Origin: an uncultured Endozoicomonas sp.
GTDB taxonomy: Bacteria; Pseudomonadota; Gammaproteobacteria; Pseudomonadales; Endozoicomonadaceae
DNA: 30,000 bases
Reading direction: 5' to 3'
Assembly (NCBI GenBank): GCA_900299555.1
Contig: OODV01000016.1
Location: forward strand, 21,065-51,064
Shown: positions 320-18,027 of the stretch, piece by piece
How the letters are laid out: every line of letters begins with the position of its first letter
Numbering within the stretch: the first letter of the stretch is position 1
Position numbers and translations under genes: made by a program
Notes under the pieces: generated by a model
What the model was told of the DNA's origin: nothing
What the model saw: only the letters and a program-made list of their open reading frames with translations
Database searches by the model: none

Positions 320-1288
320 TTATTCCTGATACTTCAGGCATCGAAGAAAATAGTTAACCCCATCAGACAATGCCTGATTGGATGCGTTCATCACTTTTGA
401 GTAATGAAGAAAAGCATGGAGGGTTCCCGGGTACATTTTGTACTCACACTCTATTCCATGACTTTCGAAAATTTTATAAAGTGCTTCACTGTCATCCAGA
501 AGAGGATCAAATTCGCTGGACGCGATAAAACTGGGAGGAATATTTTCAGATAAGTTATTGTTGAACAGGCAGTAGTAAGCAGCGTCTATCTCCTTATCAC
601 TGTTCAAATACATCTCCTGATAATACTCTAGATCTTCTTTCGTCAAACCATCCCACTCACCGCCGTACAGTTTTCGAGAACAAGAGTCTTTAAGGCCGTA
701 GAGTCCATAATAAAGCAACAGGCATTTGATATACCCGATATCCATTCCAGCATCACGTTGCCAGAGATAACTGGCCAGTGACAGATAAGCTCCAGCAGAG
801 TCTCCGGCATACCCCATGTTTTCACAATCGATGCCATGTTCATGACCATGCTTCAGAAAAAACTGACTGACGGCGACACATTCTTCGATGGCTTGAGGAT
901 ATTTCGCTTCAGGTGACAGGGTATAATCAATACCAATCACAACGGCTCCGGATGCTTCAGCCAGAATCCTCATAATTCGATCATGGGTATTAATGCTGCC
1001 CACAATAAAACCGCCACCATGAATATAAATCAGTGCCGGTGATTGTAATCTTTGGGTTGGGTAGTAGAGCCTTGTTCTTACATGACCGCCTTCGTATTCG
1101 ACATCCAGCTCTTTGATTTTATGCATTTGCGGGCCACCTTCATTCCAGAAAGCCCGACCTTTCTCATAGTCGCTGCGCATCTGCTGCAGTGGGTCACTGC
1201 ATATTTCCTGCCCTGATACTTGTGGTGCACAGTGCAGAGCGGCGGTCATCTCTTCAGACAACCGGCTCAAAACATCAACTTTATTCAT
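320..1288 (-). CDS. aes: Acetyl esterase, hormone-sensitive-lipase family alpha/beta hydrolase (Aes-like)
   Basis: The HGGGF oxyanion motif, the GDSAG nucleophile elbow and a C-terminal PGTLHAFLHYS are present. It aligns by eye along the full length to E. coli Aes as I recall it. I chose the ATG at 1288 (MNKVDVLSRLSEEM) because it matches the Aes N-terminus. The track ORF extends to a TTG at 1372. Confidence 0.85.
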   Translation of the reverse strand: MNKVDVLSRLSEEMTAALHCAPQVSGQEICSDPLQQMRSDYEKGRAFWNEGGPQMHKIKELDVEYEGGHVRTRLYYPTQRLQSPALIYIHGGGFIVGSINTHDRIMRILAEASGAVVIGIDYTLSPEAKYPQAIEECVAVSQFFLKHGHEHGIDCENMGYAGDSAGAYLSLASYLWQRDAGMDIGYIKCLLLYYGLYGLKDSCSRKLYGGEWDGLTKEDLEYYQEMYLNSDKEIDAAYYCLFNNNLSENIPPSFIASSEFDPLLDDSEALYKIFESHGIECEYKMYPGTLHAFLHYSKVMNASNQALSDGVNYFLRCLKYQE

Positions 1289-1455
1289 TCGGAGATTCTG
1301 TGGGTTGTATAAGCTTTTGGACCAATGACAACCAGTCTGGCCATGCTGCAGGGATTTATTGTTGAACCACAAAGAGAGCGAAGAAGCGCTTTTCTTTTCT
1401 CCTGTGATATCCGTGGTTCAATCTTTACCCCATGAAAGGGAGTACATGATAATGA

Positions 1456-2052
1456 TCAGGCAGAAATTTTAGGCTTCACATCGGTGGTACCCATCAGCCG
1501 GGGTCGGTTCAACTCCATTTCAACCAGTGGCATCACCTCTTTCATGGTTTTGCCAGAGCGGATGGCCAGATCCTGATACTCTTTGGTATTCAAGCCTTTC
1601 CAGTGCATGTCCTGGTCAGACACCTGACGAATCGGTTTGGCCGGTGAACCAATCAAAAGCTGCCTTGCTTCACCCTGAAAGCCAGCTTTCACAAAACTCA
1701 TGGCCGCTACAATGCTCTCTTCCCCGATAACGGCACCGTCCATTACCACCGAGTTCATGCCAACCAGTGCATTTCGACGGATGACACAACCGTGAAGAAT
1801 AGCCCCATGGCCGATATGTCCATCACGTTCGACAACCGTGTCCATATCACAGTAGCCATGCATTACACAGCCATCCTGAAGGTTGGCACCCTCCTCCAGA
1901 ATCAAACGACCATAGTCGCCTCTCAGACTGGCAACAGGACCAATATAAACACCCGGACCAACTATCACATCACCAATCAATACCGCGGTTGGATGGACAT
2001 AGGCAGTAGGGTCTACCACCGGTACCAGTCCTTCAAACTCATAACAGGGCAT
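1456..2052 (-). CDS. caiE: Carnitine operon protein CaiE (left-handed beta-helix, hexapeptide-repeat / gamma-carbonic-anhydrase-like family)
   Basis: The 198-aa product contains [34 protein letters not shown]...SLRGDYGRL...[11 protein letters not shown]...[11 protein letters not shown]. It is near-colinear with E. coli CaiE as recalled. An AAGGGAGA ribosome-binding site lies just upstream of the ATG. Confidence 0.9.
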
Positions 2053-2179: not shown

Positions 2180-2467
2180 TCAGCCGTAGCGGAACTCAAT
2201 CCCAAAGGTACCCTGTGGGTAGTGCCATTTTTTGATAATGGTGTCACCACAGAGAATACGGCAGGTGCCACACTCCAGGCAGCCAGCGGAGTCAAAATGG
2301 ATATTGCCATTTTCGTCACGCTTGTAAAGGCCCGCAGGGCAGGCAGCTTCCAGCTTGGCAAATTCTGCCGGATCCGGATTCTCAACCAGTTCGATATGAG
2401 GATTGCCTTCATCAACAAAGAATTTGTTAATGCCCAGCTTTACATCAACATTGACCTTCTCGCTCAT
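2180..2467 (-). CDS. fixX: Ferredoxin-like protein FixX
   Basis: The product is 95 aa, the same length as E. coli FixX, with Cys motifs ACPAGLY...CLECGTCRILC. Its start overlaps the fixC stop as ATGA. Confidence 0.9.
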   Translation of the reverse strand: MSEKVNVDVKLGINKFFVDEGNPHIELVENPDPAEFAKLEAACPAGLYKRDENGNIHFDSAGCLECGTCRILCGDTIIKKWHYPQGTFGIEFRYG

Positions 2468-3750
2468 AGCGCAGTCGCTCCCTTGAAGCCATCTTTGATC
2501 AGGTTCATGAAACCGGCCTGCTTCAGGTGAGGCATCACAATTTTCCGCAGTGGAGCAGAAGTGCCGTTCATGGTGTAAAGGTCTTTCATGATGCCGGTCA
2601 TCATGGTTGGATACTGGTTAAACATTCTTGGGTTATCCAGGAAGCCGGGAACCTTCTTATAGAGCTGAAGGTCTTTCATCACAAAGCTGTTATCCAGCGT
2701 TGTTTTGTAGGAAGCCAGGCCTGCTTCACTGAAGTCGCCCGCCTCTTTAGCCTTGATGATAGCATTGGCAGCCGCTTCACCGGAGGCAATGGCCAGGTCC
2801 ATTCCCCGAATGGTAAAGCCAATATTCAGACAGAGACCTGCGGCATCACCGGCAATCAGAACGCCATCACCCACCATCTTCGGCACCATGTCATAACCAC
2901 CTTCCGGTACAACGTGGGCAGAGTACTCAACGGTCTTACCACCAGCGATCAGCGGCTTAACGGTTGGATGATTTTTGAAGTCTTCCATCATCTGAGGAAT
3001 GCTTTTGCTGACCTTGTCGATGTTATGCAGACCAAACACCAGCCCCAGAGAAACGCTGTCTTCATTGGTGTACAGGAAGCCACCGCCCATCTGGCCATCA
3101 GAAGGTGAGCCAACAAACAGCCAGGCAGCACCTTCATTATCCATGCAGCCAAAACGATCGTTGATCTGCTGGCGGCTCAGCTCAATGACTTCCTTAACAC
3201 CCACACCGGTGTTGTGTGCATTTACACCGGTCACCATGCCCAGCTTCTGGCCCAGCATGGAGTTCACACCATCAGCAAGAAGCACGACATCGGCTTCCAT
3301 CTCTTCGCCACCGGCAATAACACCGCAGACCTTACCGTCGCGAACAATCAGGTCATCAACATGAACACCCGGAACAATGCTGGCACCTTCAGATTCAGCT
3401 TGTTCTGCCAGCCACTGATCAAATTTTGAACGCAGCACAGCATAAGAGCGACTGCCTGGATCTGCGGCTTCAGGGCTTGCATAGTCAAGCGTCACACTGC
3501 TGCTGCCATCCATAAAAGAGACCTTTTCATGGACAATGCAGCGCTCAACTGGTGCTTCTTCAGCAAAGTTGGGGAAAATTTTCTCGATACTGTGGGCATA
3601 AAGACGACCACCGGTCACATTCTTTGACCCTGGAAAATTGCCCCGTTCAATGACCAGTGTTTCCAGACCGGCCTTGGCTAACAGGTACGCACTGATGCAA
3701 CCGGCAAGTCCTGCCCCGACAATGATTACATCAAATTTATCTTCGGACAT
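2464..3750 (-). CDS. fixC: FixC, FAD-dependent ETF-quinone-oxidoreductase-like flavoprotein
   Basis: The product is 428 aa, matching E. coli FixC in length. It has an N-terminal DVIIVGAGLAGC dinucleotide-binding motif plus GGRLYAH, GGGFLYTN and VLIAGDAAG, and is colinear with FixC as recalled. Confidence 0.92.
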   Translation of the reverse strand: MSEDKFDVIIVGAGLAGCISAYLLAKAGLETLVIERGNFPGSKNVTGGRLYAHSIEKIFPNFAEEAPVERCIVHEKVSFMDGSSSVTLDYASPEAADPGSRSYAVLRSKFDQWLAEQAESEGASIVPGVHVDDLIVRDGKVCGVIAGGEEMEADVVLLADGVNSMLGQKLGMVTGVNAHNTGVGVKEVIELSRQQINDRFGCMDNEGAAWLFVGSPSDGQMGGGFLYTNEDSVSLGLVFGLHNIDKVSKSIPQMMEDFKNHPTVKPLIAGGKTVEYSAHVVPEGGYDMVPKMVGDGVLIAGDAAGLCLNIGFTIRGMDLAIASGEAAANAIIKAKEAGDFSEAGLASYKTTLDNSFVMKDLQLYKKVPGFLDNPRMFNQYPTMMTGIMKDLYTMNGTSAPLRKIVMPHLKQAGFMNLIKDGFKGATAL

Positions 3751-3828: not shown

Positions 3829-5427
3829 TTATTGGCTTAAAAGAGCGTTATATGGGATGGCCCAGTAATAGATAAGAAAGGTGGAAACCAATACCCCGGC
3901 AGCCACCATAATCCAGCCGTAGTAGCGACTTCTGACATACTCTGCTGCCACTGTTTCTGATGCGGGTATCTGGTGAATTTTGTTCTGGTAAGTAATCTCT
4001 TCCATGGTTTTGGTCTGGCCTTTTGAGCCCCAGATACCCAGCACAATGCTGATGGCTACGCCAATAAAGAAAGGATCAAAAAGATTAACCAGCGGCACGC
4101 CAGCCAGCTCTTTAAGCAGCTTAGCGACCATATATCCAAAGAAACCGCCCGCCATGGCCAGGTAAGCGCCACGTTCTGTCAACTTCTTACTCCAGACACT
4201 GGCAAAAGCAACGTAACCCCAGGATGCCGCGATAATCGTGCTGGCAAACCAGGCAATGACACGAATACTGGCCATATCCATACTGGCGATCATCAGTGAC
4301 AGCAAACTGACCAGCAGCATCATCCCACGGGTAAAGCGAAGCTGTGATTTCTCACTGGCAAACTTGATATTCAGAATGTCGCTGGACAGGCTGAAGCCCA
4401 CCACCGATAGAAAAGTGCATGCGGAGGTGAGACCGGCTGTCAGAATACCCGCCAGTAAGGCAACACCCACAAGTGGAGGCATCAGTTCCATAGCCGCCCA
4501 GATCATGACCTTTTCAGGCTGATCCATCGCTGAATTCACAGGAATGACACTGATGGACATCAGATAGAGGTAGAGCAAAAAGATTACCGTCAGTAGTGCC
4601 ATCATCACACTGGAGCGCAGGATGACCTGCTCATTTCGAGCCATCAGGTTACGGCCAGCCTGCCATGGGCTGACGGCAACGGTTACCAGCCAGATAATCC
4701 CCATGGTAATGCCGTAAAACACCATATCAAACTCGGAGCCACCACGAGGGTTACCGTGGTAATCCAGCAGTCCCGGTGGCGTTTCTGGATTACGGGCCAG
4801 CGTATCAAGCAGATTCTCAAGACCACCCGCAGCTTCAAATACATAAGGCCCGGCAAAGATCGTGATGCCCAGGAAGAACAGGCACATAACAGTGTCTGTT
4901 AATACGCTTCCACGAGCACCGGAATAGAAGGTAAACAGGGTAATGCCGACCCAGGCAATCAAAAGACAGGTTACACGACTGTAACCAGTTAATGTTTCCA
5001 TCAGCAGGCCGGTACCCTGTAGAACACTGATCAGATAAGCGAACAGGGAGGCTACCGTAATCATGGCAGCAAGCCGGCGAATACGAACACTGTTGAACCG
5101 ATGAGAAAAATAGGTGGGCATGGTATTAACCATGGCCCTGCGAATATAGCGACCAAAAAACAGGCCACCGATCACATACCCTCCAGCACAGAGCGTATTC
5201 AGTAAAAGCATGGTGGTAATGTTGCCACCGTAGCTGAAAGCGGTATCCCCCATAAACCCATTAGTACTGAGCATGGAGGCAAATAAGGTGCAGGTAATGA
5301 ATAACGTGGGAGCATTGCGACCGCAGACATAATAATCATCAATGCCTTTAACCTTCATTCCGGCGTATGCACCAATCAACACGAATACAACAATGCTGAC
5401 AAGAACGCCGGCGGCATAAATACTCAT
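3829..5427 (-). CDS. Sodium:solute symporter (SSS) family transporter, substrate unknown
   Basis: The 532-aa polytopic membrane protein has an SSS-typical N-terminal region, GIDDYYVCGRNAPTLFITCTLFASMLSTNGFMGDTAFSYGG, and many hydrophobic segments. It lies between fixB and fixC. Confidence 0.85.
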   Translation of the reverse strand: MSIYAAGVLVSIVVFVLIGAYAGMKVKGIDDYYVCGRNAPTLFITCTLFASMLSTNGFMGDTAFSYGGNITTMLLLNTLCAGGYVIGGLFFGRYIRRAMVNTMPTYFSHRFNSVRIRRLAAMITVASLFAYLISVLQGTGLLMETLTGYSRVTCLLIAWVGITLFTFYSGARGSVLTDTVMCLFFLGITIFAGPYVFEAAGGLENLLDTLARNPETPPGLLDYHGNPRGGSEFDMVFYGITMGIIWLVTVAVSPWQAGRNLMARNEQVILRSSVMMALLTVIFLLYLYLMSISVIPVNSAMDQPEKVMIWAAMELMPPLVGVALLAGILTAGLTSACTFLSVVGFSLSSDILNIKFASEKSQLRFTRGMMLLVSLLSLMIASMDMASIRVIAWFASTIIAASWGYVAFASVWSKKLTERGAYLAMAGGFFGYMVAKLLKELAGVPLVNLFDPFFIGVAISIVLGIWGSKGQTKTMEEITYQNKIHQIPASETVAAEYVRSRYYGWIMVAAGVLVSTFLIYYWAIPYNALLSQ

Positions 5428-5748: not shown

Positions 5749-6695
5749 TTATTTCTCGCCAAACGCAGCAGTCAGTGCTGGCACGATCTTGTAAAGATCG
5801 CCAACAATGCCGTAGTCCGCGTATTGGAAGATTGGAGCATTTTTGTCCTTGTTCACTGCAACAATCACCTGGGCACTGTTGGCAGCAACCATGTGCTGGA
5901 TCTGACCGGAAATACCCAGTGCCAGATACAGTTCTGGTTTTGGCATCACACCGGAGATACCCACATAACGCTCCTGCTCCAGCCACTTCTCGCTCTCAGC
6001 GATCGGACGGGAACAACCCAGCTCAGCATCAATGGCAGCACCCAGGGCTTCCGCCATGGCGATATCTTCTTTTTTGGCAATACCACGGCCAATACTGACG
6101 ATACGTTTGGCCTTACCCAGGTCTACCTGAGTAGCCTGCTAGGCTGACGCTCCAGACACTTGATGGCTGCTTTTGGTGCAACGAATTCAACGTTGATGGT
6201 TTCACCGGTTCTGGCAGCGTCTTCGCTTTCAGGTGCAAATACACCACCACTGACAACCATCACGGCAAACGGAGAAGCCACTTTCTCCTGACCGTGGGCA
6301 AGACCACCGTAAACCATGCGCTTACCGGTAACACCGCCGTCTTCAACGGTCACGTCATACGCTTCAGTTACCACACCCGCCTTCAGCTTAACGCCCAGCA
6401 GAGAAGCCAGAGCTTTACAGCAGCGAGTGCCTGGCAGCAGAATCAATGCAGAGTCCGCAGCTTCAGAGATGGCCTTGGCCATGGTGTCAGCGTAATCTTC
6501 AACAATGCGTGAAGTTTCTCTGGCACCCAACAGATAAACTTTGTCAGCACCCTGGGCGTAGGCTTTTGCTACATCACCATCGGTGCCAATCACAAAAGCA
6601 GAAACCACATCACCCAGTTCACGGGCACCGGCAAGTACTTCTGCCTGACGGGATTCGACGTCGCTGAAAACCCAAACGTTTGCAATCTTACTCAT
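5749..6695 (-). pseudogene. fixB: fixB (ETF alpha-subunit homologue) interrupted by a frameshift
   Basis: ORF 6123-6695 (190 aa, MSKIANVWVFSD...EFVAPKAAIKCLERQ) matches the FixB N-terminal domain. A different frame, open from 6138 down to 5749, encodes [52 protein letters not shown]...[19 protein letters not shown], which matches the FAD-binding C-terminal domain. The frame change maps to about 6126-6143. Confidence 0.8.
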
Positions 6696-6706: not shown

Positions 6707-7486
6707 TCAATTCAGAATTTTACGCAGGTGGCTTACCAGCTCAGCGATTTGATCTTCACCGTCGCCTTCAATCATGACGTTGAGGCGTTCTTTCTGCTTG
6801 GGTGCTTTGGTTTCCAGCAATTCAACCGATGCTGTGCCCTGCGCTACGCCCAGCGCTGATGGTGTCATCGTACCTACTGGCTTCTTACCGGCAGCCAGAA
6901 TGGCCTTCATGCCAGGAATCGCAGGGGTGTTGATGTCTGCAGAAACAGAGATAACGGCGGGCAGAGTGACTTCCAGCACTTCCACTTCACTTTCCAGTGC
7001 ACGCTCAACCACCAGTTTGCCGTTGTCCGCAGAAACAATTTTGCTGACGCCGCTCAGGGTGGCGACATCCAGCAGTGCACCCAGACGGGTACCGACCTGC
7101 TGAGCCAGAAGGTCTCCGGAACCGTCACCACACAGGATCAGGTCAAAGCCAATCTCTCTGGCAGCAGTTGCCATCACTTCGGCCGTCTGCTCTGGCAGCA
7201 GATGCGTATAGGCATCGTCCATAACCGCAGTCATGGCGTCAGGACCGCGGGACAGGATGTCTTTACGGGCCTTGCTGTTTTCCAGGGTCTTGTCACCCAC
7301 GCTCAGAGCGGTGATGTGGGCTTCACCCACCAGGCCTTTTACTTCAACAGCTGCTTCAATAGCATTCAGATCAAATGGGCTGATCTTTGGCGTTGCACGG
7401 CTAACGTCCAGTGAGCCATCGGCCTGTACAACGATATCCTGCTCTTCAGGTACCAGTTTGCATCCAACAATAATTTTCATAGTCAT
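6707..7486 (-). CDS. fixA: FixA (ETF beta-subunit homologue)
   Basis: The 259-aa product contains MKIIVGCKLVPEEQDI...ISPFDLNAIEAA...LSRGPD...LILCGDGSGDL...IPGMKAILAAGKKP, colinear with E. coli FixA as recalled. The start could instead be the second ATG at 7480. Confidence 0.92.
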   Translation of the reverse strand: MTMKIIVGCKLVPEEQDIVVQADGSLDVSRATPKISPFDLNAIEAAVEVKGLVGEAHITALSVGDKTLENSKARKDILSRGPDAMTAVMDDAYTHLLPEQTAEVMATAAREIGFDLILCGDGSGDLLAQQVGTRLGALLDVATLSGVSKIVSADNGKLVVERALESEVEVLEVTLPAVISVSADINTPAIPGMKAILAAGKKPVGTMTPSALGVAQGTASVELLETKAPKQKERLNVMIEGDGEDQIAELVSHLRKILN

Positions 7487-7574
7487 TCAGCTTTCTACCT
7501 AAACTGCCCGGAGCACTCTGCCCCGGACATACTTCAAAACGACCTCTGCTCACCGGAACAGAGGGAGTGCATCT

Positions 7575-8426
7575 TTATTTCCACTCAGCGAGGGCGTAAT
7601 TCAGATATGCGATTTCTGGATCGTTGGCATCAATCACACGGAAGTGGATGGAGTTGTCATCCCACTTCCACATCTGGGTTTTGATGGTGCAGCCTGGGTA
7701 CAGAGACTTGGTAATCCGGGTCTTGAAGCGGGTCAGACGCTCAGGCTCACCAGGCAGCAGCGTGTTGATGATGTGACGGCAGGCAAAACCGGCAGTACTT
7801 ACGGCGTGCAGGTTTGGCTTGGGATGGTCAAACTTCTGGGCATATTCCCAGTCGATATGTTGAGGGTGGTAATCACCATTGAGACGATAGATGATTGCCT
7901 GGTTCAGAGGCACCTGTTCCACAACTTCAAAGTCAGGCTCTCTCTCTGGAATCTCAACGATATCCGCTGGTGCTTTTGGACCACCGAAGCCACCGTCGTA
8001 CAGACAGCAATCCCAGCTTTCATTGGTAAACAGCAGGGTGCCATCTTCATCAAAGGTCTCGCCAATATGCTGAGCCAGACAGCCACGACCTGGACCACGG
8101 TCATAAAGACCTTTCAGTAATACTTTGGTGCTGAGTTTGCCAGACAGCTTGGTCAGAGGCTGATGGAACTGAAGATCAAAGCCCCAGTGGAGGGAACCAC
8201 CCCACTCAAAACCAAAGTCGATGGTTTTGGTGACTTCGCTGTCCACAATCGGCATGGCAGCAAACATCGGCAGAATTTTCTGATCCTTTTCGTAAACGTA
8301 CTCAAGATCCGTCTTGCCATCGGCACCGGCACCACAGCCCAGGCCAAAGATAATCAGTTCACGGAAGTCATATTCCCGTTCAAAAGGGCCGTATGTCTTG
8401 CCCTGCATATCCAGTTTTAAAGCCAT
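7575..8426 (-). CDS. Hydratase-2-type (MFE-2-like, MaoC/double hot-dog) enoyl-CoA hydratase homologue occupying the caiD position
   Basis: The 283-aa product aligns by eye with the hydratase-2 domain of peroxisomal MFE-2 as recalled. Matches are GGFGGPKAP to GGFGGKRTS, LNQAIIYRLNGDYHPQHID to LNQAALYRLSGDWNPLHID, and RFKTRITKSLYPGCTIKTQMWK to [25 protein letters not shown]. It shows no crotonase-fold features. A GGAG ribosome-binding site lies upstream of the ATG. Confidence 0.8.
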   Translation of the reverse strand: MALKLDMQGKTYGPFEREYDFRELIIFGLGCGAGADGKTDLEYVYEKDQKILPMFAAMPIVDSEVTKTIDFGFEWGGSLHWGFDLQFHQPLTKLSGKLSTKVLLKGLYDRGPGRGCLAQHIGETFDEDGTLLFTNESWDCCLYDGGFGGPKAPADIVEIPEREPDFEVVEQVPLNQAIIYRLNGDYHPQHIDWEYAQKFDHPKPNLHAVSTAGFACRHIINTLLPGEPERLTRFKTRITKSLYPGCTIKTQMWKWDDNSIHFRVIDANDPEIAYLNYALAEWK

Positions 8427-8510: not shown

Positions 8511-10106
8511 TCAAGCGGGTAACTCTTCCGGGTCTGTCCATACACAGACCCGCTCATTCTTCAGAACATTTTTCTTTACTTTGCCGGTACTGGTTCTTGG
8601 TAAACTTTTTCTAAACTCAACCGATGCCGGCACTTTGAATTTGGCTAATCGTTCTGAGCAATACCCTTGAATATCCGCTTCAGTCAGAAATGAATTCTCT
8701 TCCTGAACAACGACTGCTTTAACGATCTCGTCATACATTTCATCAGGGATGCCAATAACGGCTGCATCAAGAATATTCGGATGACTGATGAGAACATTTT
8801 CAATTTCTGTACTGGAGATATTTTCACCGGATCGCTTAATCAAATTGACATTGCGATCCATAAAGAAGAAGTAACCATCTTCATCCATGTGTGCAAAATC
8901 ACCCGTATGTAACCATCCATCACTATCATAGGTTTTGGCAGTTGCTTCCGGATTGTTGTAATACTCCCTGAACAGTGTTTTCCCGGGTATGCCTTTAATG
9001 ACAATCTCACCCAGTTCACCGGGTTCAACTTCTTTATTATTAGAATCGACAATTCGAATGTCATAACAGAACCCGGGCCTGCCAATAGCAGGCCACCGCC
9101 TTTCAAAACCTGGTGTATCAACGATATTACCAACGATGGTTTCTGTCATTCCGTAGGATGTTAATAACCTGACATTAAACCGATGAGTAAAATCTTCTTT
9201 CTCTTTCTCGGATAGATTTAAATAAAAGAGAACGTCTCGAAGCTGGTGTTCTTTTTCCCAGGGTGCTTCGGGCTGCAACATCAGAGTGCGAATCATTAAA
9301 GGAATACACTCTGTAACGGTTGCCCGATGGTGACAAATCTGACCCCAGAATTTTTTTGCGCTGTATTTTTCTACCAGGATTAATGCAGCACCGGAATGAA
9401 ATGCCGGCATTGCTGTAGTGCACTGAAAATCAATATGGCAGGCCGGCATGATGGTCAAATAACGGTCATCTTCTCTCAGTGAGCACATCCATGAACTGTA
9501 ATGCCCAGCAAAAAGTAGGTTGTAATGGGTTATTACCACTCCCTTTGGACAGGATGTAGTTCCGGACGTGAAAATGATCTCGGCAATATCATCACTGCTT
9601 ACCGGTACATTCCGGAGTAACTCGGTTGGCTGCTGTTTCAGCGCCCTTGAAAAGTTAAGGGCATCCGGAATATTTATATGGTCAGCAATACGGGCAACAA
9701 GAATTTGTTGTTGACTATCACCTGTGTGTTCAGCCTGATAGTTAGCAACAAACTGAGGCTCTACAATAACAGTTTTAATTTCACAGTGTTCAATAATGTA
9801 CCCACATTCATTCCGAAGACTATGAGCATTAATAGGTACAGTGATCGCGCCAATTTTGGCCAGACCAAACCAGCTGATCAGAAATTCGGGACAATTATTC
9901 AGTTGGGTAGCAACCCGATCACCTTTCTCAATACCAAGACTGAGAAACAGATTTGCGGCTCGGTTTATTTCGCCATTAAATTCTGCATAGGAATATTCAC
10001 TGATATTGCCCTCTGCATCTTCAAATACGACAGCCGTCCTTGAGCCATGCAAGTTTGCCAGCTGATCCCAGGCTTGCCGAATGTTTTTGTTACCCACTAA
10101 ATCCAC
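8511..10106 (-). CDS. caiC: Crotonobetaine/carnitine-CoA ligase CaiC (adenylate-forming enzyme)
   Basis: The 531-aa product has the AMP-binding motifs IIFTSGTTSCPKGVVITH, TSYGMTET and WLHTGD. It is colinear with E. coli CaiC as recalled (CPEFLISWFGLAKIGAI, YLNLSEKEKEDF). It starts at GTG. Confidence 0.9.
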   Translation of the reverse strand: MDLVGNKNIRQAWDQLANLHGSRTAVVFEDAEGNISEYSYAEFNGEINRAANLFLSLGIEKGDRVATQLNNCPEFLISWFGLAKIGAITVPINAHSLRNECGYIIEHCEIKTVIVEPQFVANYQAEHTGDSQQQILVARIADHINIPDALNFSRALKQQPTELLRNVPVSSDDIAEIIFTSGTTSCPKGVVITHYNLLFAGHYSSWMCSLREDDRYLTIMPACHIDFQCTTAMPAFHSGAALILVEKYSAKKFWGQICHHRATVTECIPLMIRTLMLQPEAPWEKEHQLRDVLFYLNLSEKEKEDFTHRFNVRLLTSYGMTETIVGNIVDTPGFERRWPAIGRPGFCYDIRIVDSNNKEVEPGELGEIVIKGIPGKTLFREYYNNPEATAKTYDSDGWLHTGDFAHMDEDGYFFFMDRNVNLIKRSGENISSTEIENVLISHPNILDAAVIGIPDEMYDEIVKAVVVQEENSFLTEADIQGYCSERLAKFKVPASVEFRKSLPRTSTGKVKKNVLKNERVCVWTDPEELPA

Positions 10107-10227: not shown

Positions 10228-11460
10228 TCACTCTCCGGCAGGAGCAATCCCCAGCTTGACGACACCTTTATCTGCCATCGCTTGAATGGCCTCATCGCTA
10301 TAACCGATATCATTCAGAATACTGGCGGTATCCATGCCATGTGTTGGCATACCACGCCAGACCTTGCAGGGGTTATTCTTGAACCGCGGCATGATATTTG
10401 GGCCCTTGTACACCTTGCCGGACGGAGTCTCCCACTCAATGAAGGAGTTACGGGCTACGTACTGGGGATGGGATTCCAGTTCCGGGATGTCCAGTACCTT
10501 GGAGAAGGCAATGCCGTACTCACCGTAAATGGCCTGGGCTTCCGCAATTGTCTTGCCAGCCAGGAATTCATCCAGATGATCTTCAACCAGCTGTGCAGAA
10601 GGCGATTTACGACTGATAAGCTGAATGCCTTCAGGAAACTCTTCCGTTCCCAACAGGTGCCCAATACCAATGGCAGGGAACATTTTCTCAATGGGTTTGG
10701 CACCCACCAGCTCCATAACCACATAACCATCGCGACACTTATAAACACCGCAGCCAACGTACAGAGGATCTTTACCACGGGTCATACGTGGGCACATTTC
10801 ACCACCGTTGAGGTAGTCCATCATGTAGTACTGCCCAACGTGGAGCATCACTTCATACATTGCCACATCAATGCTTTCGCCAACACCGGTTTTGTGAACG
10901 TTGTGAAGCGCGGCCAGGACAGAGCTGGTTACCGCAAAGCCGGAGATATAGTCAGCGGTGTATGGGAAAGCAGGCATTGGCTGGTCCACGTCACCGTTCT
11001 GAATCAGATAGCCACTGAAGGCCTGAGCGATGGTGTTATAAGCGGCACTATTCGTGTATTCATCCACACCAAATTGACCAAAGCCGGACAGGTGGGCAAT
11101 AACCAGTTTCCTGTTGTGCTCCCAAAGCAATTCATCGGTAATACCACGACGGGCAAAAGCAGGCCCCTTGCTGGCTTCGATAAAGATGTCTGCCGTTTCA
11201 ATCAATTTCAGAAAGGCTTCTTTGCCTTCATCTGAAAAAATATTGATAGCCATGGCATGAAGGTTTCTGCGGGACATTTCTGGATAGTTAGGCTGAACCC
11301 GGATCGTATCACCATAGGCAGAATGCTCAATCCAGATAACCTCAGCGCCCCACTCGGCCAACATTTGTGCTGAATATGGTCCAGCCACTTCGATGGCTGA
11401 AAAAACAACCCTTAATCCCTTTAAGGGACCAAACCCCGGTGTAAACAGTTTCTTGGACAT
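10228..11460 (-). CDS. caiB: L-carnitine CoA-transferase CaiB (class III CoA transferase)
   Basis: The 410-aa product contains [19 protein letters not shown]...WGAEVIWIE...[17 protein letters not shown]...FPYTADY...[12 protein letters not shown]...GMPTHGMDT, very close to E. coli CaiB as recalled. Confidence 0.93.
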
Positions 11461-11567: not shown

Positions 11568-12704
11568 TTAACGGTACTTCTTCAGTACCTGACGACCCAG
11601 TGTCAGGATCTGCATTTCGTCAGATCCACCGGAAACACGGTCAACCCGCAGGTCACGCCAGAAACGTCCAACGCGATGTCCAGTGATACCGATACCGCCC
11701 AGTACCTGCATGGCAGAGTCCACTACTTCGAAGGCAGCATTGGCACAGAAGTATTTACACATGGCAGCGTCACCGGAGTTCACAGTGCCGTTGTCGCACT
11801 TCCATGCAGTTTCATAAACCATGTTCTTCATGGCGTTCAGTTTGATCGCCATGTGAGCAAATTTTTCCTGGATCAGCTGAGTACGACCGATGGCTTCACC
11901 AAACTGGATACGCTGGTTGGCGTACTTGGCAGCGTCTTCAAAGGCACACAGGGCAATACCGTAGTTGGTGCAGGCAACCAGGAAGCGCTCTGCATCGAAC
12001 TCTTCCTTGACACGGTTAAAACCATTGCCTTCAGAGCCAAACATGTCCTTCTCTTCCAGCTCAACGTTGTCGAAGATCACTTCGCAGCAGCTATCCATGC
12101 GCAGACCGATCTCGTCCAGTGGGTTCAGCTTGATGCCTGGCTTGCTCATATCCACAAACCACTCAGAGAATACTGGTGAGTCTGGAGAAGCAGAGTCGCG
12201 GGCCATCACCACCAGGTAAGGACAGTGGGAGCTACTGGTGATAAAGCACTTGTGACCGTTCAGGTAAACTTTGCCATCCTTGCGGGTATAAGTGGTTTTC
12301 AGACTACCTACGTCAGAACCGGCACTTGGCTCAGTAATGGCGGAGTTCCACATTTGTTCGCCAGTGCCGCGCAGAGCAAAAATCTTGTCGATCTGTTCCT
12401 GGGTGCCATGACGCAGCACGGTGTTGAAACCAGGCAGCTGATACAGAACATAGGTAGGCGCACCGTGACGTCCAAGCTCTTCCCAGATAGCGGTCAGAGT
12501 AACCAGGCCAGCATCCATACCGTCGTGTTCTTCTGGCAGCAGCATGGTGTCGATGCCCAGTTCAGCCAGAGCCTTCACCCAGCGCAGTAGGTATTCGTGC
12601 TTTTCGTCACATTCAACGAAGTAGGCTTCCCAGTTCTCTCTTTCCATCAGTTCGCGGACACCCGCAACAAACAGTTCCTGCTCGTCAGATAAATTAAAAT
12701 CCAT
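11568..12704 (-). CDS. caiA: Crotonobetainyl-CoA reductase CaiA (acyl-CoA dehydrogenase family)
   Basis: The 378-aa product contains [20 protein letters not shown]...[24 protein letters not shown]...[11 protein letters not shown]...[24 protein letters not shown], near-colinear with E. coli CaiA as recalled. Confidence 0.93.
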
Positions 12705-12768: not shown

Positions 12769-14283
12769 TTACCAGCGATTCTTTTTGGCATCTTTCAGGA
12801 ATGCCCAGATAACCAGAATATTCACGATAGCCAGTGGCGCGCCCCCTGCGATGATGGCTGTCTGCAGAGGCTTCAGGCCGCCCAGGGCAAGCAGGGTAAT
12901 ACCCAGAATCCCCACCAGCAGAGACCAGCCAAGTCGAATCCACAGTGGTGGTTCGTCGTAACCCGTCGCTTCCTTACAGGTAGACATGGCCAGGGTGTAA
13001 GAACAGGCGTTTACCAGGGTGATCGTGGCCAGGAAACAGAGCACCAGGAAGACACCGATGGTGAAGGTGCTGAGTGGTAGTGTTGCCCAGATTTCGATAA
13101 TGGCCCGTGGTACATCGTTCTCACTGATGATGGTGCTGATATCCAGCAGTCCCTTGTGCATAACCTCAACGGTATAGCTGCCGAGGATGCCCCAGAGTGT
13201 CCATGTGGTCAGAGTCAGACCGCCCACCATGCCCAGACAGAGTTCACGTACTGTTCTGCCCTTGGAGATACGGGCAAGGAAGATGCACATCTGGATGCCG
13301 TAAATCATCCACCAGGCCCAGTAGAAGACAGTCCAGTTCTGAGGAAAACCACTCTCACCGATGGCATCGGTATAGAACAGCATCCTGCCGGCATTCATCA
13401 GGAGAACACCAAAGGAGTCGGTGAAGTAATTCAGAATAAAGGTGGTACCACCAACGATCAGAACCCAGGCAAGAACAAAGATACTCAGGTAGCTTCTCAG
13501 GTCACTGGCGATACGGATGCCTTTCTGAAGACCGAAGGCCACACAAATCGCGTTGAAAACAATGAGGAAAGAGATAATGGTCGCATCAACTTCCAGACTA
13601 CGCTCAATACCAAAAAGATACTCGATACACTCGGTAACCAGTGGTGTCGCCAGACCAAGACTGGTACCCATCGCCAGAATCAGCGCAACGATGTAAAGGT
13701 TATCTACGAAGGTTCCAAACAGGCCATTACTGTGCTTTTCACCCACCAGTGGTTCAATAGTCTTACTGGGGCGAATAACATTGACCTTTTTCACATACAG
13801 GAAGTAGCCAAAAGCAACACTTAACAGACTGTAGGTTGCCCAGGGTAAAGGTCCCCAGTGGAAGAGAGAGTAGGCAACACCGTATTCTTTTGCCTGTTGA
13901 GAGAAAGGTTCGATACCGAATGGAGGCGTGAGGATATAGTAATAAACTTCAATCGTACCCCAGAAAAGGACGGCTGCCGACGTACACGAAGCAAACATCA
14001 TGAAGATCCAGCTGGCAGTACTGAATTCAGGTTCCTCATCACCCAGCTTTTTATTGGCATAAGGGCCGAAGAGTAACCAGAAATAACCGCCCAGCATGAT
14101 GACCATGTACCACTCAAATGCCCAGGCCCATTTGTAGGTCACATATTGAAAGACCTGGTTAATCACCTGATTAGCGGCATCCAGGTCCCGAACCGTGAAA
14201 TAAATCAATATGGCAACAATAGCTAACGAAGGTATTGCTATCTTCGTATCTATTTTTATTGCCTTTTTTGATTCAGCATCCAT
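12769..14283 (-). CDS. caiT: L-carnitine/gamma-butyrobetaine antiporter CaiT (BCCT family)
   Basis: The product is 504 aa, the same length as E. coli CaiT. It contains [48 protein letters not shown] and [20 protein letters not shown] ribosome-binding site lies 7 nt upstream of the ATG. Confidence 0.93.
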
Positions 14284-15158
14284 TCAAACTTCCCCCTATT
14301 AAAAGCCTTGAATAACATACTAAAAAGCTAATCTGATTTTTGGGTGTTCAATCTTTTTTCTATAAATAAGTGTTTTCAACGATGGATCAATTGAATACTC
14401 AAAAACAGACTCTGAAACAGAAAATGAATAATCTGGAATAAAATTAATTCAGAAATTTACGAATAACTCATCATGAAGAAGACCAGATTTTAAGATAGCC
14501 ATAGCAGGACAGCTGGTCTTTAAATGATCAACAACACATCATAGTAATAAATGTAAATTCTCCCACTCATCTTAACCAGGAGATAAAAAATAAGCGCCTC
14601 TTTGAAGGCAGGCAGAATATAATATACTCACTATTTCCATAATTTGATTTGAAGCAATTATTGGATGAATAGTTTTTCCCTTTATCTTTCATTTACTATT
14701 CATAAACTTAAATAGTTTTGAGTATTTTTTAGACAACATAAAGCGTACGTCACTATTTATTAAAAAAACAGATTAAATATTATTCAGGATAAATATTGAC
14801 CTATTGCTCACTGATTGAGCAGTGGTTAAAAAAACACTAATAAAACAGTCAAGATTATTAACCTGAATCAATTTCTCAACCATCCATACAAAAATACATT
14901 TCAATAATTTGACGAGAATCATTTATTAATCATCAAAACATATCCGAATTGAAGAGCATTACTATCCAAGAAATAAAATAATCATCTTGAGAAAAAACAT
15001 TACCGGCGAAATCCTATATCTTTTTAACAATCCAACTCTGACCTCTGAAATGTAATTTTTAGGGAAGCCTTTATAAAAATGACTCATTTTGATAAAGGCT
15101 ATTTATGACAGGATTCTCACATTGAATTTCTGTATCCAGAAAGATACATAACCCAACA
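14284..15158. promoter_or_regulatory. 875-bp strongly AT-rich non-coding spacer; must contain the cai operon promoter and operators and the 3' end of the RpiR-regulator transcript
   Basis: No ORF of 60 aa or more lies on either strand. Only 5-10 codon ORFs without ribosome-binding sites were found by eye. Several inverted repeats are present: TTCAA-N11-TTGAA at 14375-14395, aagaccag/ctggtctt at 14479-14520, and tgctca-ctgat-tgagca at 14805-14821. Confidence 0.6.
15066..15100. terminator. 35-bp near-perfect AT-rich palindrome 59 bp downstream of the regulator stop; possible terminator or protein-binding site
   Basis: The sequence is agcctttat-a-aaaatga-c-tcatttt-g-ataaaggct. It has a single mismatch across 35 bp and is centred on TGACTCA. 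Confidence 0.4.
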
Positions 15159-17019: not shown

Positions 17020-17051
17020 GGTCTTTCCACCTTACTATTGAGAGAGGGAAA

Positions 17052-17085
17052 GTACTGCAGGCTCCCTTACCCCCTACTGCAGTAC
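17052..17085. other. Intercistronic hairpin between iolB and iolJ
   Basis: gtactgcag (17052-17060) pairs with ctgcagtac (17077-17085), a perfect 9-bp stem with a 16-nt C-rich loop. Confidence 0.4.
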
Positions 17086-17105
17086 CCCCAAATTGTCACA
17101 GCCAT

Positions 17106-17951: not shown

Positions 17952-18027
17952 GTTTAACTCTTTCCCGGAGTGATTTCTGTAACCTTTGAAAAGCAATCGC
18001 ACTTCTCAAAGGCTTAATCGGATTTAC

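What the first reader, a model, noticed from the sequence alone, without database searches (positions are those of the whole stretch)
7575..8426. CaiD slot filled by a hydratase-2 (MFE-2-type, hot-dog fold) enzyme with a deviant catalytic motif
Between clear orthologues of CaiC and FixA, where E. coli has the crotonase-fold carnitinyl-CoA dehydratase CaiD, sits a 283-aa double hot-dog protein. It aligns to the hydratase-2 domain of peroxisomal MFE-2. The catalytic Asp and His are kept: residues 180-196 are YRLNGDYHPQHIDWEYA (nt 7839-7889). Three otherwise conserved positions of the hydratase-2 motif [YF]-x(1,2)-[LVIG]-[STGC]-G-D-x-N-P-[LIV]-H-x5-[AS] are changed (N for S/T/G/C, H for N, Q for L/I/V). 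The downstream HG is HA here. This looks like a non-orthologous replacement of the hydration/dehydration step of the carnitine pathway. By CIP priority swapping, L-(R)-carnitine corresponds spatially to an L-(3S)-hydroxyacyl group, which is the crotonase product. A hydratase-2 with canonical (3R) stereochemistry would therefore be expected to make or consume D-carnitinyl-CoA. Several readings are open. The cluster may handle D-carnitine or racemise it, the enzyme may have evolved inverted binding for the trimethylammonium substrate, or the true substrate may be a different betaine. I know of no described cai cluster of this type.
Basis: partly seen in the sequence, partly recalled or inferred. 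Interest (0 to 1): 0.8.

Follow-up and report, generated by a model that had tools for sequence, protein, structure and literature searches.

The report
Hot-dog hydratase replacing CaiD in carnitine operons
In this Endozoicomonas carnitine-respiration operon the usual dehydratase gene (caiD) is absent and its place is taken by an unrelated "hot-dog fold" hydratase from a tightly conserved, uncharacterised family that sits in carnitine operons of at least five bacterial phyla, so the E. coli textbook operon is only one of two versions and gene surveys built on it miss many likely carnitine reducers.

Summary
Window 7575-8426 (-) encodes a 283-aa double hot-dog hydratase-2 protein. It hits Pfam MaoC_dehydratas and MFE-2_hydrat-2_N, and the AF2 model (pLDDT 93.5) matches human MFE-2 hydratase 2 at TM 0.88. 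It lies between caiC and fixA in a caiT-A-B-C-[H]-fixA-fixB-SSS-fixC-fixX-caiE operon that has no crotonase.

H is a discrete family. All 80 related genomic loci place it in a cai cluster, and wherever the flank is held it sits directly after caiC. The motif G-D-x-H-P-Q-H-x-D-W-x-Y-A is invariant in 81/81 members; canonical relatives have GDxNPLHxDPxFA. H is as conserved as CaiA.

Compact operons in Bacillota, Sutterella and Geopsychrobacteraceae contain only caiT, A, B, C, H and fixABCX, so H is the only dehydratase candidate. Enterobacillus has the E. coli layout with H in place of caiD-caiE.

There is a complication. In Shewanella and Ferrimonas, H sits beside a true CaiD, and both are under strong purifying selection. 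Those H proteins carry Gly208; all CaiD-less clusters carry Ala208.

My verdict is that H is a probable non-orthologous carnitinyl-CoA dehydratase. It is widespread and unannotated, and only hinted at in the literature. Its stereochemistry, the interesting point, is untested.

The parts
7575..8426 (-). H: 283-aa double hot-dog (hydratase-2/MaoC type) protein, the proposed carnitinyl-CoA dehydratase / crotonobetainyl-CoA hydratase
   Evidence: Pfam PF01575 and PF22622 both score above cut-off. There is no NCBIfam model. Human MFE-2 hydratase 2 (1s9c) matches at E=4e-33. AF2 pLDDT is 93.5 and Foldseek TM is 0.88. All 80 related loci place it in a cai cluster.
7839..7889 (-). Deviant hydratase-2 motif, residues 180-196 YRLNGDYHPQHIDWEYA, containing catalytic Asp185 and His190
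   Evidence: G184, D185, H187, P188, Q189, H190, D192, W193, Y195 and A196 are invariant in 81/81 family members. In 73 canonical relatives, position 187 is N in 73, 189 is L/I/V in 73, and 193 is P in 67.
7803..7805 (-). Ala208 codon, equivalent to the oxyanion-hole Gly533 of human hydratase 2
   Evidence: The alignment to 1s9c pairs LHG with LHA. Position 208 is Ala in 68/68 H proteins from CaiD-less clusters and Gly in 13/13 from CaiD+H clusters. The importance of Gly533 is taken from PMC3823801.
8511..10106 (-). caiC, betaine:CoA ligase, always immediately upstream of H
   Evidence: NCBIfam NF005947 equivalog scores 818.6 bits against cut-off 651. C-H adjacency holds in every locus that holds the upstream flank. 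Its GC of 0.43 is an outlier.
10228..11460 (-). caiB, L-carnitine CoA-transferase
   Evidence: NCBIfam NF002914 equivalog scores 668.5 bits against cut-off 413. It is 70% identical to E. coli CaiB.
11568..12704 (-). caiA, crotonobetainyl-CoA reductase
   Evidence: NCBIfam NF002885 equivalog scores 732 bits against cut-off 540. It is 80.5% identical to E. coli CaiA.
12769..14283 (-). caiT, carnitine/gamma-butyrobetaine antiporter (BCCT)
   Evidence: It is 69% identical to E. coli CaiT by tblastn.
6707..7486 (-). fixA (ETF beta-like)
   Evidence: NCBIfam NF002888 scores 358.8 bits against cut-off 219.
5749..6695 (-). fixB (ETF alpha-like), split by a 1-nt deletion near 6140. The N-terminal part is 6123-6695; the C-terminal part is 5749-6138 in another frame.
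   Evidence: fixB is intact in Endozoicomonas loci L001 and L003.
3829..5427 (-). Sodium:solute symporter inserted between fixB and fixC
   Evidence: Pfam SSF. Homologues are 65-67% identical at the same position in Desulfovibrionales H-type clusters.
2464..3750 (-). fixC
   Evidence: NCBIfam NF007542 scores 622.6 bits against cut-off 610.
2180..2467 (-). fixX
   Evidence: NCBIfam NF011993 hits at E=3.4e-39 with 132.9 bits, below the cut-off of 166.
1456..2052 (-). caiE
   Evidence: NCBIfam NF010150 equivalog scores 387.6 bits against cut-off 305.
320..1372 (-). Abhydrolase_3 esterase at the end of the operon, a candidate acylcarnitine hydrolase
   Evidence: Pfam PF07859 at E=2e-50. It is 39% identical (E=9e-92) to the hydrolase in actinobacterial H-type cluster L083. 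Homologues occur in 54 of 81 loci.

Best explanation
H is the carnitinyl-CoA dehydratase (crotonobetainyl-CoA hydratase) of a second, phylogenetically broad version of the anaerobic carnitine-to-gamma-butyrobetaine pathway. It is a hot-dog-fold analogue that takes the place of the crotonase-fold CaiD.

Proposed sequence of steps:
1. CaiT or other transporters import carnitine. The clustered esterase may first free it from acylcarnitines.
2. CaiC and CaiB make carnitinyl-CoA.
3. H removes water using the conserved Asp185/His190 dyad, giving crotonobetainyl-CoA.
4. CaiA, fed by FixABCX, reduces this to gamma-butyrobetainyl-CoA.
5. CaiB passes the CoA to the next carnitine.

The family-specific invariant residues replace small or hydrophobic residues of fatty-acyl hydratases 2. 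They are His187, Gln189, Trp193 and Tyr195 in the catalytic helix, Trp81, Phe83, Trp138, Asp139 and Asp155 in the N-domain, and Ala208 at the oxyanion position. I infer that they rebuild the acyl pocket for a short cationic trimethylammonium group. Because the natural substrate is L-carnitine, I also infer that they let the enzyme handle the stereoisomer a canonical (R)-hydratase would not make.

Shown here: fold, catalytic dyad, family signature, obligatory cai context, and absence of any crotonase in the cluster. Inferred: substrate, direction and stereochemistry.
For: Fold and dyad.

Context: all 80 loci place H in a cai cluster, with caiC immediately upstream wherever that flank is held, even where the fix genes are shuffled. 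Clusters in Bacillota, Sutterella and Geopsychrobacteraceae contain only T, A, B, C, H and fixABCX, with no other unassigned gene. Enterobacillus tribolii has the E. coli architecture (divergent fixABCX, then caiTABC) with H where caiD-caiE would be. No CaiD-like crotonase lies within +-10 kb in 67 of 80 loci or anywhere in the window.

Co-evolution: H is as conserved as CaiA (mean pairwise identity 0.72 against 0.70) and more conserved than CaiB (0.59) or CaiC (0.50). Its distance matrix tracks theirs, r = 0.72-0.88.

Discreteness: the family collapses to one 50%-identity representative at 413 bits, and the next hit scores 256 bits.

Pathway identity: CaiA is 61-80% identical to E. coli CaiA across these clusters, so the downstream substrate is very likely the same.

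Sister subfamily: the GDWHQQHIDW proteins of Coriobacteriia pair with a CaiB-like CoA-transferase, which is the minimal two-enzyme 'carnitine dehydratase' combination.

Natural substrate: a conserved esterase in 54/81 loci points to natural L-(acyl)carnitine as the feed. So does the association of an MFS transporter plus alpha/beta-hydrolase with acylcarnitine depletion in a caiD-less P. freudenreichii cluster.
Against: No biochemical data exist for any member.

All characterised hydratase-2/MaoC enzymes give the (3R)-type geometry, which for this substrate would be D-carnitinyl-CoA, not the natural L form (established stereochemistry).

In 13 Shewanella/Ferrimonas loci H coexists with a true CaiD, and both are under strong purifying selection. 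Plain redundancy does not predict this.

I could not scan the rest of the Endozoicomonas genome, or any other H-only genome, for a crotonase that might do the step in trans.

The link to the P. freudenreichii phenotype is unverified. No P. freudenreichii-named H member was retrieved.

fixB is frameshifted in this window, so the pathway may not be functional in this particular strain.
Confidence: 0.6

Rival explanations
1. H keeps the canonical (R)-hydratase face and interconverts crotonobetainyl-CoA and D-carnitinyl-CoA. Together with CaiD it would form a two-hydratase carnitine epimerase/racemase. This mirrors peroxisomal 3-hydroxyacyl-CoA epimerase activity, which is the sum of hydratase 1 and hydratase 2. 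Alone, it would let cells use D-carnitine.
For: The fold and dyad are those of (R)-hydratases. Coexistence with CaiD under purifying selection in Shewanella/Ferrimonas fits complementary rather than redundant roles. Those H copies retain the canonical oxyanion Gly208.
Against: 67 of 80 loci have H without CaiD. D-carnitine is not a known natural metabolite (general knowledge). An operon kept as conserved as CaiA across five phyla for D-carnitine alone is hard to justify. The clustered esterase points to natural L-acylcarnitines.
Confidence: 0.15
2. H acts on a different CoA thioester. This could be another hydroxylated betaine or an acyl side product, or H could serve another role such as proof-reading or thioester handling linked to CaiC. 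The carnitinyl-CoA dehydration would then be done by a crotonase encoded elsewhere.
For: The universal adjacency is to caiC specifically. H coexists with CaiD in some clusters. Genomes could not be scanned for distant crotonases. An Asp-less paralogue H' sits beside H in E. elysicola DSM 22380, next to a second caiB'-caiC' pair, which suggests substrate diversification in this family.
Against: The Asp/His hydratase dyad is invariant in all 81 H proteins; only the two H' paralogues lack the Asp. Nearest relatives are hydratases, not thioesterases. caiC-caiD adjacency is also the E. coli order. The compact operons have no other dehydratase candidate. The pathway enzymes score as CaiA, CaiB and CaiC equivalogs.
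Confidence: 0.2
3. H is a decaying or non-catalytic passenger in this strain, part of an operon that is being lost.
For: fixB carries a 1-nt deletion in the window. caiC has anomalous GC and the caiB-caiC segment is mosaic among Endozoicomonas strains.
Against: The H ORF is intact and 99-100% identical to those of two other Endozoicomonas genomes whose fixB is intact. All 78 near-invariant family positions are kept. The single-base fixB change could be a sequencing error.
Confidence: 0.05

Closest known systems
2-enoyl-CoA hydratase 2 domain of peroxisomal MFE-2 (human 1s9c; C. tropicalis 1pn2/1pn4) and bacterial MaoC-type (R)-specific enoyl-CoA hydratases
   Same: Two-domain double hot-dog fold (TM 0.88). 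The catalytic Asp and His sit in the same helix motif, with about 28% identity over the whole length.
   Different: The motif is GDxHPQHxDWxYA rather than GDxNPLHxDPxFA. The oxyanion Gly is Ala in CaiD-less clusters. About 30 positions are invariant in the family and rare (<=10%) in canonical relatives, including aromatic and acidic residues gained in the N-domain pocket. The context is a betaine-CoA pathway rather than fatty-acid, PHA or bile-acid metabolism. The natural substrate would have the opposite spatial configuration at C3.
CaiD of E. coli (crotonase-fold crotonobetainyl-CoA hydratase / carnitinyl-CoA dehydratase)
   Same: Operon position directly after caiC, and partnership with CaiA, CaiB, CaiC and FixABCX. 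The presumed reaction is the same.
   Different: The fold is unrelated, with no PF00378 hit and no NCBIfam hit. In the top 120 hits, true CaiD orthologues (>=81% identity) were seen only in Enterobacterales, Shewanella and Ferrimonas, whereas H spans five phyla. The two coexist in Shewanella and Ferrimonas.
caiD-less caiABC-fixABCX cluster of Propionibacterium freudenreichii (Scoary2 paper, doi 10.1101/2023.04.19.537353)
   Same: A cai cluster that lacks caiD and caiT and carries an MFS transporter, an alpha/beta-hydrolase and an 'enoyl-CoA hydratase' between caiABC and fixABCX. The authors suggest the hydratase fills the caiD gap. The same architecture, with H in it, is seen in actinobacterial loci L082-L084.
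   Different: The paper does not give the fold or family of that hydratase. My searches returned no P. freudenreichii-labelled H member, so identity with the H family is unconfirmed. The paper contains no family-wide survey, motif analysis or discussion of stereochemistry.
MaoC-type hydratases acting on carboxylated substrates (mesaconyl-CoA hydratase; itaconyl-CoA hydratase such as PaIch 8khg)
   Same: Double hot-dog hydratases recruited to non-fatty-acid CoA esters. PaIch appears as a remote fold match.
   Different: Only about 15% identical, with TM about 0.66. By CIP reasoning their products keep the canonical (R)-type geometry. They handle anionic, not cationic, substituents.

Membership tests
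Hydratase 2 / MaoC dehydratase superfamily (double hot-dog) | Pfam MaoC_dehydratas (PF01575) above gathering score | tested here: met
   46.9 bits against cut-off 27, residues 158-260
Hydratase 2 / MaoC dehydratase superfamily (double hot-dog) | MFE-2 hydratase-2 N-terminal domain (PF22622) above gathering score | tested here: met
   35.4 bits against cut-off 27, residues 18-137
Hydratase 2 / MaoC dehydratase superfamily (double hot-dog) | Two-domain hot-dog fold superposable on solved hydratase 2 | tested here: met
   AF2 pLDDT 93.5; Foldseek TM 0.88, rmsd 2.5 A to 1s9c
Hydratase 2 / MaoC dehydratase superfamily (double hot-dog) | Catalytic Asp and His spaced D-x4-H in the central-helix motif | tested here: met
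   D185 and H190 align to the human dyad and are invariant in 81/81 family members
Hydratase 2 / MaoC dehydratase superfamily (double hot-dog) | Full hydratase-2 sequence motif [YF]-x(1,2)-[LVIG]-[STGC]-G-D-x-N-P-[LIV]-H-x5-[AS] | tested here: not met
   N183, H187 and Q189 break the pattern in the window. H187 and Q189 break it in every family member.
Hydratase 2 / MaoC dehydratase superfamily (double hot-dog) | Conserved oxyanion-hole Gly (human Gly533) | tested here: not met
   Ala208 in the window and in 68/68 CaiD-less clusters; Gly only in the 13 CaiD+H clusters. The role of Gly533 is taken from PMC3823801.
Hydratase 2 / MaoC dehydratase superfamily (double hot-dog) | (3R)-specific hydration of trans-2-enoyl-CoA | not testable with these tools
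   Requires an enzyme assay with chiral product analysis
CaiD (carnitinyl-CoA dehydratase, crotonase superfamily) | Crotonase/ECH fold (PF00378) and sequence similarity to E. coli CaiD | tested here: not met
   H has no PF00378 or NCBIfam hit. tblastn with E. coli CaiD finds nothing in the window.
CaiD (carnitinyl-CoA dehydratase, crotonase superfamily) | Gene directly downstream of caiC in a caiTABC operon | tested here: met
CaiD (carnitinyl-CoA dehydratase, crotonase superfamily) | Reversible dehydration of L-carnitinyl-CoA to crotonobetainyl-CoA | not testable with these tools
   No biochemical data for any H member were found in four literature searches
cai/fix anaerobic carnitine reduction system | CaiT, CaiA, CaiB and CaiC orthologues in one operon | tested here: met
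   NCBIfam equivalogs above cut-off for CaiA, CaiB and CaiC. Identity to the E. coli proteins: CaiT 69%, CaiA 80.5%, CaiB 70%, CaiC 54.5%.
cai/fix anaerobic carnitine reduction system | FixABCX electron-transfer module | tested here: inconclusive
   fixA and fixC score above their cut-offs. fixX matches below its cut-off. fixB is frameshifted by a 1-nt deletion relative to L001 and L003.
cai/fix anaerobic carnitine reduction system | CaiF activator | tested here: not met
   No tblastn hit to E. coli CaiF in the window or in any locus

The most novel reading that the evidence does not exclude
H would be the first hot-dog-fold (hydratase-2 type) enzyme whose physiological substrate has the crotonase-type configuration (L-carnitinyl-CoA, spatially a 3S-hydroxyacyl). 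That would be a natural inversion of the facial selectivity of this fold. The invariant extra His187, Gln189 and Trp193, together with the Gly208-to-Ala change at the oxyanion hole, would achieve it.

The Gly208 variants that coexist with CaiD in Shewanella and Ferrimonas would keep the ancestral (R)-face. Paired with CaiD they would form a two-hydratase carnitine racemase. That could explain the long-unassigned 'carnitine racemase' type of activity.
Probability: 0.3. Interest if true: 0.85.

Novelty: new variant of a known kind. Interest (0 to 1): 0.62.

Why it matters
There are three reasons.

1. Pathway annotation. The anaerobic carnitine-to-gamma-butyrobetaine route is the first half of the gut route from dietary carnitine to TMA/TMAO. 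It is currently recognised by the E. coli gene set. One recent database demands all six caiTABCDE genes (PMC11857547). H-type clusters lack caiD, and often caiE and caiT, so such screens cannot see them. They nevertheless occur in human-associated Actinomyces, Schaalia, Winkia, Trueperella, Arcanobacterium, Sutterella and gut Bacillus. Public annotation calls H a 'MaoC/PaaZ C-terminal domain-containing protein' or a bile-acid enoyl-CoA hydratase, and no NCBIfam model exists.

2. Enzymology. A hydratase-2 fold acting on L-carnitinyl-CoA would have to deliver the stereochemistry so far reserved for crotonases. The invariant signature and the Ala/Gly208 split give concrete residues to mutate.

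3. Evolution. This is a clean in-situ non-orthologous displacement. The same operon slot is filled by two different folds. Both versions occur within Enterobacterales, and a lineage keeping both provides a natural experiment.

Tried and rejected
1. A canonical caiD in the same genome. tblastn found none in the 30-kb window or in +-10 kb of the Endozoicomonas loci. A database search with E. coli CaiD listed only Enterobacterales, Shewanella and Ferrimonas among its top 120 hits (>=81% identity). That cannot exclude a more distant Endozoicomonas crotonase.

2. Prior descriptions in the literature. Four searches combined caiD, carnitine, crotonobetainyl-CoA or carnitinyl-CoA with MaoC, hot-dog or enoyl-CoA hydratase terms. 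They returned only the Scoary2 remark. A search for crotonobetaine with Eggerthella or Sutterella gave nothing useful. The Psychrobacter plasmid paper concerns a truncated caiAB module.

3. Tying the P. freudenreichii phenotype to the H family. Cluster P0107 has the matching architecture but is labelled Actinomyces or Cellulomonas. A search seeded with a Propionibacteriaceae H returned no P. freudenreichii name. This is left unconfirmed.

4. H as a thioesterase. Rejected, because the closest sequence and fold relatives are all hydratases and the Asp/His dyad is invariant.

5. The overlapping plus-strand ORFs (7644-8120 and 8163-8420). I treated them as shadows of the strongly conserved minus-strand gene and did not pursue them.

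6. Reading pocket geometry or substrate orientation from the AF2 model. The tools do not expose coordinates. Only sequence-level specificity positions could be listed.
Full report
WHAT IS THERE

The window comes from an Endozoicomonas genome. The target protein is 100% identical to that of E. elysicola DSM 22380 and 99% identical to that of E. atrinae. The operon layout is that of E. atrinae.

On the minus strand lies one long gene array:
- caiT, 12769-14283
- caiA, 11568-12704
- caiB, 10228-11460
- caiC, 8511-10106
- the target ORF, 7575-8426
- fixA, 6707-7486
- fixB, 5749-6695 (frameshifted)
- a sodium:solute symporter, 3829-5427
- fixC, 2464-3750
- fixX, 2180-2467
- caiE, 1456-2052
- an Abhydrolase_3 esterase, 320-1372

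CaiA, CaiB, CaiC and CaiE score above the curated cut-offs of their NCBIfam equivalog models. Identity to the E. coli proteins is 80.5% for CaiA, 70% for CaiB, 54.5% for CaiC, 74% for CaiE and 69% for CaiT. No crotonase-like sequence exists anywhere in the window.

CHECKING THE OBSERVATION

The 283-aa ORF starts at ATG, with GGAG 8 nt upstream. It matches Pfam MaoC_dehydratas and MFE-2_hydrat-2_N above their gathering scores. It matches no NCBIfam model.

Its best solved relative is the hydratase-2 domain of human MFE-2 (1s9c, E=4e-33). There, YRLNGDYHPQHID aligns residue for residue with YRLSGDWNPLHID, and PNLHAVSTAGF aligns with PILHGLCTFGF. An AlphaFold2 model built from a 66-sequence alignment has mean pLDDT 93.5 and pTM 0.91. 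It superposes on 1s9c at TM 0.88. The next matches are M. tuberculosis 3khp, Phytophthora MaoC 3kh8, Arabidopsis ECH2 7mku and C. tropicalis hydratase 2 1pn2/1pn4.

THE PROTEIN BELONGS TO A DISCRETE, UNANNOTATED FAMILY

A search of 5.8 billion proteins gave 433 hits. The top ~100 are 57-92% identical full-length proteins from very different bacteria. In the library clustered at 50% identity, the whole family collapses to a single representative at 413 bits. The next hit scores 256 bits, followed by a continuum of ordinary hydratase-2 proteins.

I analysed 83 sequences from genomic loci: 81 H proteins and two copies of a divergent paralogue H'. Seventy-eight positions are invariant with at most one exception. 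The stretch G184-D185-x-H187-P188-Q189-H190-x-D192-W193-x-Y195-A196 is invariant in all 81 H proteins.

I compared these with 73 canonical relatives carrying GDxNP[LIV]H. In those, position 187 is Asn in 73/73, position 189 is Leu/Ile/Val in 73/73, and position 193 is Pro in 67/73. About 30 positions are fixed in H and rare in the relatives. Among them are W81 (Gly in relatives), F83 (Gln), W138, D139, C140 (Phe), D155, S210 (Cys) and H218 (Ala).

The published description of the motif is Y-R-L-S-G-D-X-N-X-L-H-I-D-P-X-X-A, with an Asp/His dyad and an important Gly533 (PMC3823801).

Public names for the family are 'MaoC/PaaZ C-terminal domain-containing protein', 'acyl dehydratase' or a bile-acid enoyl-CoA hydratase.

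GENOMIC CONTEXT ELSEWHERE

A scan of one genome per species (GTDB) found 113 genomes that encode a relative, and 80 loci were fetched with 10-kb flanks. I mapped the window's Cai and Fix proteins and E. coli CaiD, CaiF and FixB onto them by tblastn. Every locus with enough flank carries caiA, caiB and caiC.

H lies directly downstream of caiC without exception, even where the order of the fix genes differs:
- Bacillota: T A B fixABCX C H
- Propionibacteriaceae: A B fixAB C H fixCX
- Most others: (T) A B C H fixABCX

In Bacillota, Sutterella and a Geopsychrobacteraceae MAG the clusters are compact, with no unassigned space. The conserved set is exactly a transporter, CaiA, CaiB, CaiC, H and FixABCX.

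Enterobacillus tribolii (Enterobacterales) has the E. coli architecture: divergent fixABCX, then caiT-A-B-C. There H stands where E. coli has caiD-caiE.

Across 68 loci that have all four genes, H is as conserved as CaiA (mean pairwise identity 0.72 against 0.70). It is more conserved than CaiB (0.59) or CaiC (0.50). Its distance matrix correlates with theirs at r = 0.72-0.88, the same level as CaiA against CaiB (0.78). H therefore behaves as a core, co-inherited component of the cluster.

The taxa covered are:
- Gammaproteobacteria: Endozoicomonas, Shewanella, Ferrimonas, Enterobacillus
- Sutterella
- Desulfobacterota
- Many Bacillota
- Many Actinomycetota, including the human- or animal-associated Actinomyces, Schaalia, Winkia, Trueperella and Arcanobacterium
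- One Dormibacterota MAG

By contrast, the 120 best database hits to E. coli CaiD (all >=81% identical) are from Enterobacterales, Shewanella and Ferrimonas only.

THE COMPLICATION

In 13 loci, all from Shewanella and Ferrimonas, the order is T A B C D H E. The CaiD there is genuine, 84-89% identical to E. coli CaiD. Within this group both genes are under strong purifying selection. Median dN/dS is 0.025 for H and 0.014 for CaiD, compared with 0.014 for CaiA and 0.020 for CaiB. H is therefore not simply redundant with CaiD.

These 13 H proteins differ from all others at two places next to the catalytic machinery. Position 208 is the equivalent of the human oxyanion-hole Gly533. It is Gly in 13/13 of them and Ala in 68/68 H proteins from CaiD-less clusters. 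Position 186 neighbours the catalytic Asp. It is Asp in 11/13 of them and aromatic in 68/68 of the others. The 13 form one clade, so this correlation is confounded with phylogeny. It is nevertheless what functional divergence would look like.

STEREOCHEMISTRY (ESTABLISHED CHEMISTRY AND INFERENCE)

L-carnitine is (R). The CH2N+ group outranks CH2COO- in the CIP rules, whereas an alkyl chain ranks below CH2COSCoA. As a result, L-(R)-carnitinyl-CoA has the same spatial arrangement as L-(3S)-hydroxyacyl-CoA, which is the crotonase product. The shared 'L' in Fischer convention says the same thing.

The same priority swap explains why MaoC-type mesaconyl-CoA and itaconyl-CoA hydratases give '(S)'-labelled products while keeping the (R)-hydratase face. 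A canonical hydratase 2 would therefore make D-carnitinyl-CoA.

The comparative data bear on it only indirectly. H-only clusters dominate, with 67 of 80 loci. They occur in animal-associated and marine bacteria, where the available substrate is L-carnitine. Fifty-four of 81 loci also carry a homologue of the window's Abhydrolase_3 esterase. It is 38-49% identical in the roughly 40 H-only loci outside Endozoicomonas that carry it, and about 30% identical in the 13 CaiD+H loci.

In P. freudenreichii, an alpha/beta-hydrolase plus MFS transporter in a caiD-less caiABC-fixABCX cluster was statistically associated with three changes in yogurt: depletion of acylcarnitines, a rise in carnitine, and a rise in putative gamma-butyrobetaine. 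The authors remarked that an 'enoyl-CoA hydratase' in the cluster might fill the caiD gap. Actinobacterial loci L082-L084 show the same architecture with H in it. I could not confirm that the P. freudenreichii hydratase is an H member.

MOST LIKELY FUNCTION AND MECHANISM

H is the carnitinyl-CoA dehydratase of a second version of the cai pathway (confidence 0.6). The steps are:
1. Import, with optional de-acylation by the clustered esterase.
2. CoA activation by CaiC and CaiB.
3. Dehydration by H, using Asp185 and His190.
4. Reduction by CaiA with FixABCX.
5. CoA recycling by CaiB.

The family-specific aromatic and acidic residues, the extra His187 and Ala208 are the candidates for two tasks. 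One is binding a short cationic head group instead of a fatty chain. The other is presenting the other face of the enoyl thioester. Fold, dyad, signature and context are shown here. Substrate, direction and stereochemistry are inferred.

The rivals are:
- A canonical-face D-carnitinyl-CoA hydratase that forms an epimerase with CaiD (0.15).
- A different substrate or role, with a crotonase acting in trans (0.2).
- A decaying passenger gene in this strain (0.05).

COMPARISON WITH WHAT IS KNOWN, AND NOVELTY

H is a member of the hydratase-2/MaoC superfamily by domain models, fold and dyad. It fails the classical sequence motif and lacks the conserved oxyanion Gly. It is not a member of the CaiD (crotonase) family, although it very probably works like CaiD.

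Non-orthologous displacement is a familiar phenomenon, and one paper has noticed a caiD-less cai cluster. What I found in no paper is the following: the identification of the replacement as a distinct hot-dog family with an invariant deviant motif; its breadth; its coexistence with CaiD; the Ala/Gly208 split; and the stereochemical implication. I rate it a new variant of a known kind, with interest 0.62.

CAVEATS

There is no biochemistry for any member. The genomes could not be scanned for distant crotonases. In this window fixB carries a 1-nt deletion relative to two sister genomes, so the operon may be inactive in this strain, or the base may be a sequencing error.

Noticed in passing
window 5749-6695 (-), deletion near 6140: fixB is split by a single-base deletion (AA to A) relative to E. 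elysicola DSM 22380 (L001) and E. atrinae (L003), where fixB is intact at about 312 aa. This is either a sequencing error or strain-specific inactivation of the electron-transfer module.
   Followed up: yes
window 320-1372 (-): An Abhydrolase_3 esterase sits at the distal end of the operon. It is 39% identical (E=9e-92) to the hydrolase in actinobacterial H-type clusters. Homologues lie within 10 kb of H in 54 of 81 loci. It is a candidate acylcarnitine esterase, by analogy with the alpha/beta-hydrolase flagged in P. freudenreichii. E. coli cai has no such gene.
   Followed up: partly
window 3829-5427 (-): A sodium:solute symporter family gene is inserted between fixB and fixC. Homologues 65-67% identical sit at the same position in Maridesulfovibrio, Pseudodesulfovibrio and Desulfobaculum clusters. 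It may be a second betaine transporter beside CaiT.
   Followed up: partly
L001:5942-9956 (E. elysicola DSM 22380); window 8511-10106: The caiB-caiC segment is mosaic among Endozoicomonas strains. DSM 22380 has caiB' (62% identical) and caiC' (67% identical), plus an extra paralogue H' (54% identical, L001:9108-9956) directly upstream of H. H' has Ile instead of the catalytic Asp (RLIGIYHHLHADWEYA). In the window, caiC has GC 0.43 against about 0.51 for its neighbours.
   Followed up: partly
L085:8735-10873 (also L086, L087): A sister subfamily about 50% identical to H carries the motif GDWHQQHIDW. Source labels are Coriobacteriales and Eggerthellaceae. It is paired only with a CaiB-like CoA-transferase (42% identical to CaiB). 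The pair lies beside a LuxR-type regulator and a few kb from a flavoprotein plus multihaem cytochrome pair, with no caiA or caiC. This may be a minimal carnitine/crotonobetaine interconversion module feeding a different reductase.
   Followed up: partly
H residues 186 and 208 across loci L001-L080: Position 208 (the oxyanion-hole equivalent) is Ala in all 68 H proteins from CaiD-less clusters and Gly in all 13 from CaiD+H clusters. Position 186 is aromatic in the former and Asp in 11 of 13 of the latter. The pattern is confounded with phylogeny, since the 13 form one Shewanella/Ferrimonas clade.
   Followed up: yes
window 7543-7564 (-): A terminator-like hairpin (9 bp stem, then TCGTTTTGAA) lies 11 nt after the H stop codon and before fixA. 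This could separate cai and fix transcription units, as in E. coli. It is a consensus match only.
   Followed up: no
whole window and all loci: No homologue of the E. coli activator CaiF was detected by tblastn. The region upstream of caiT (14001-15000) is AT-rich (GC 0.325). It is followed by an RpiR-type (HTH_6 + SIS) regulator gene at 15159-16013 (-).
   Followed up: partly
window ~16177-29019: By eye, the rest of the window looks like a myo-inositol catabolism cluster, plus an MFS sugar transporter and a sugar ABC transporter. These were not checked with any tool and are unrelated to the finding.
   Followed up: no
P0116 (443 aa, ENA metagenome): One database protein combines an AMP-binding C-terminal domain with the MaoC domain. 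It is either a CaiC-H fusion or a gene-calling read-through. Either reading fits the universal caiC-H adjacency.
   Followed up: no
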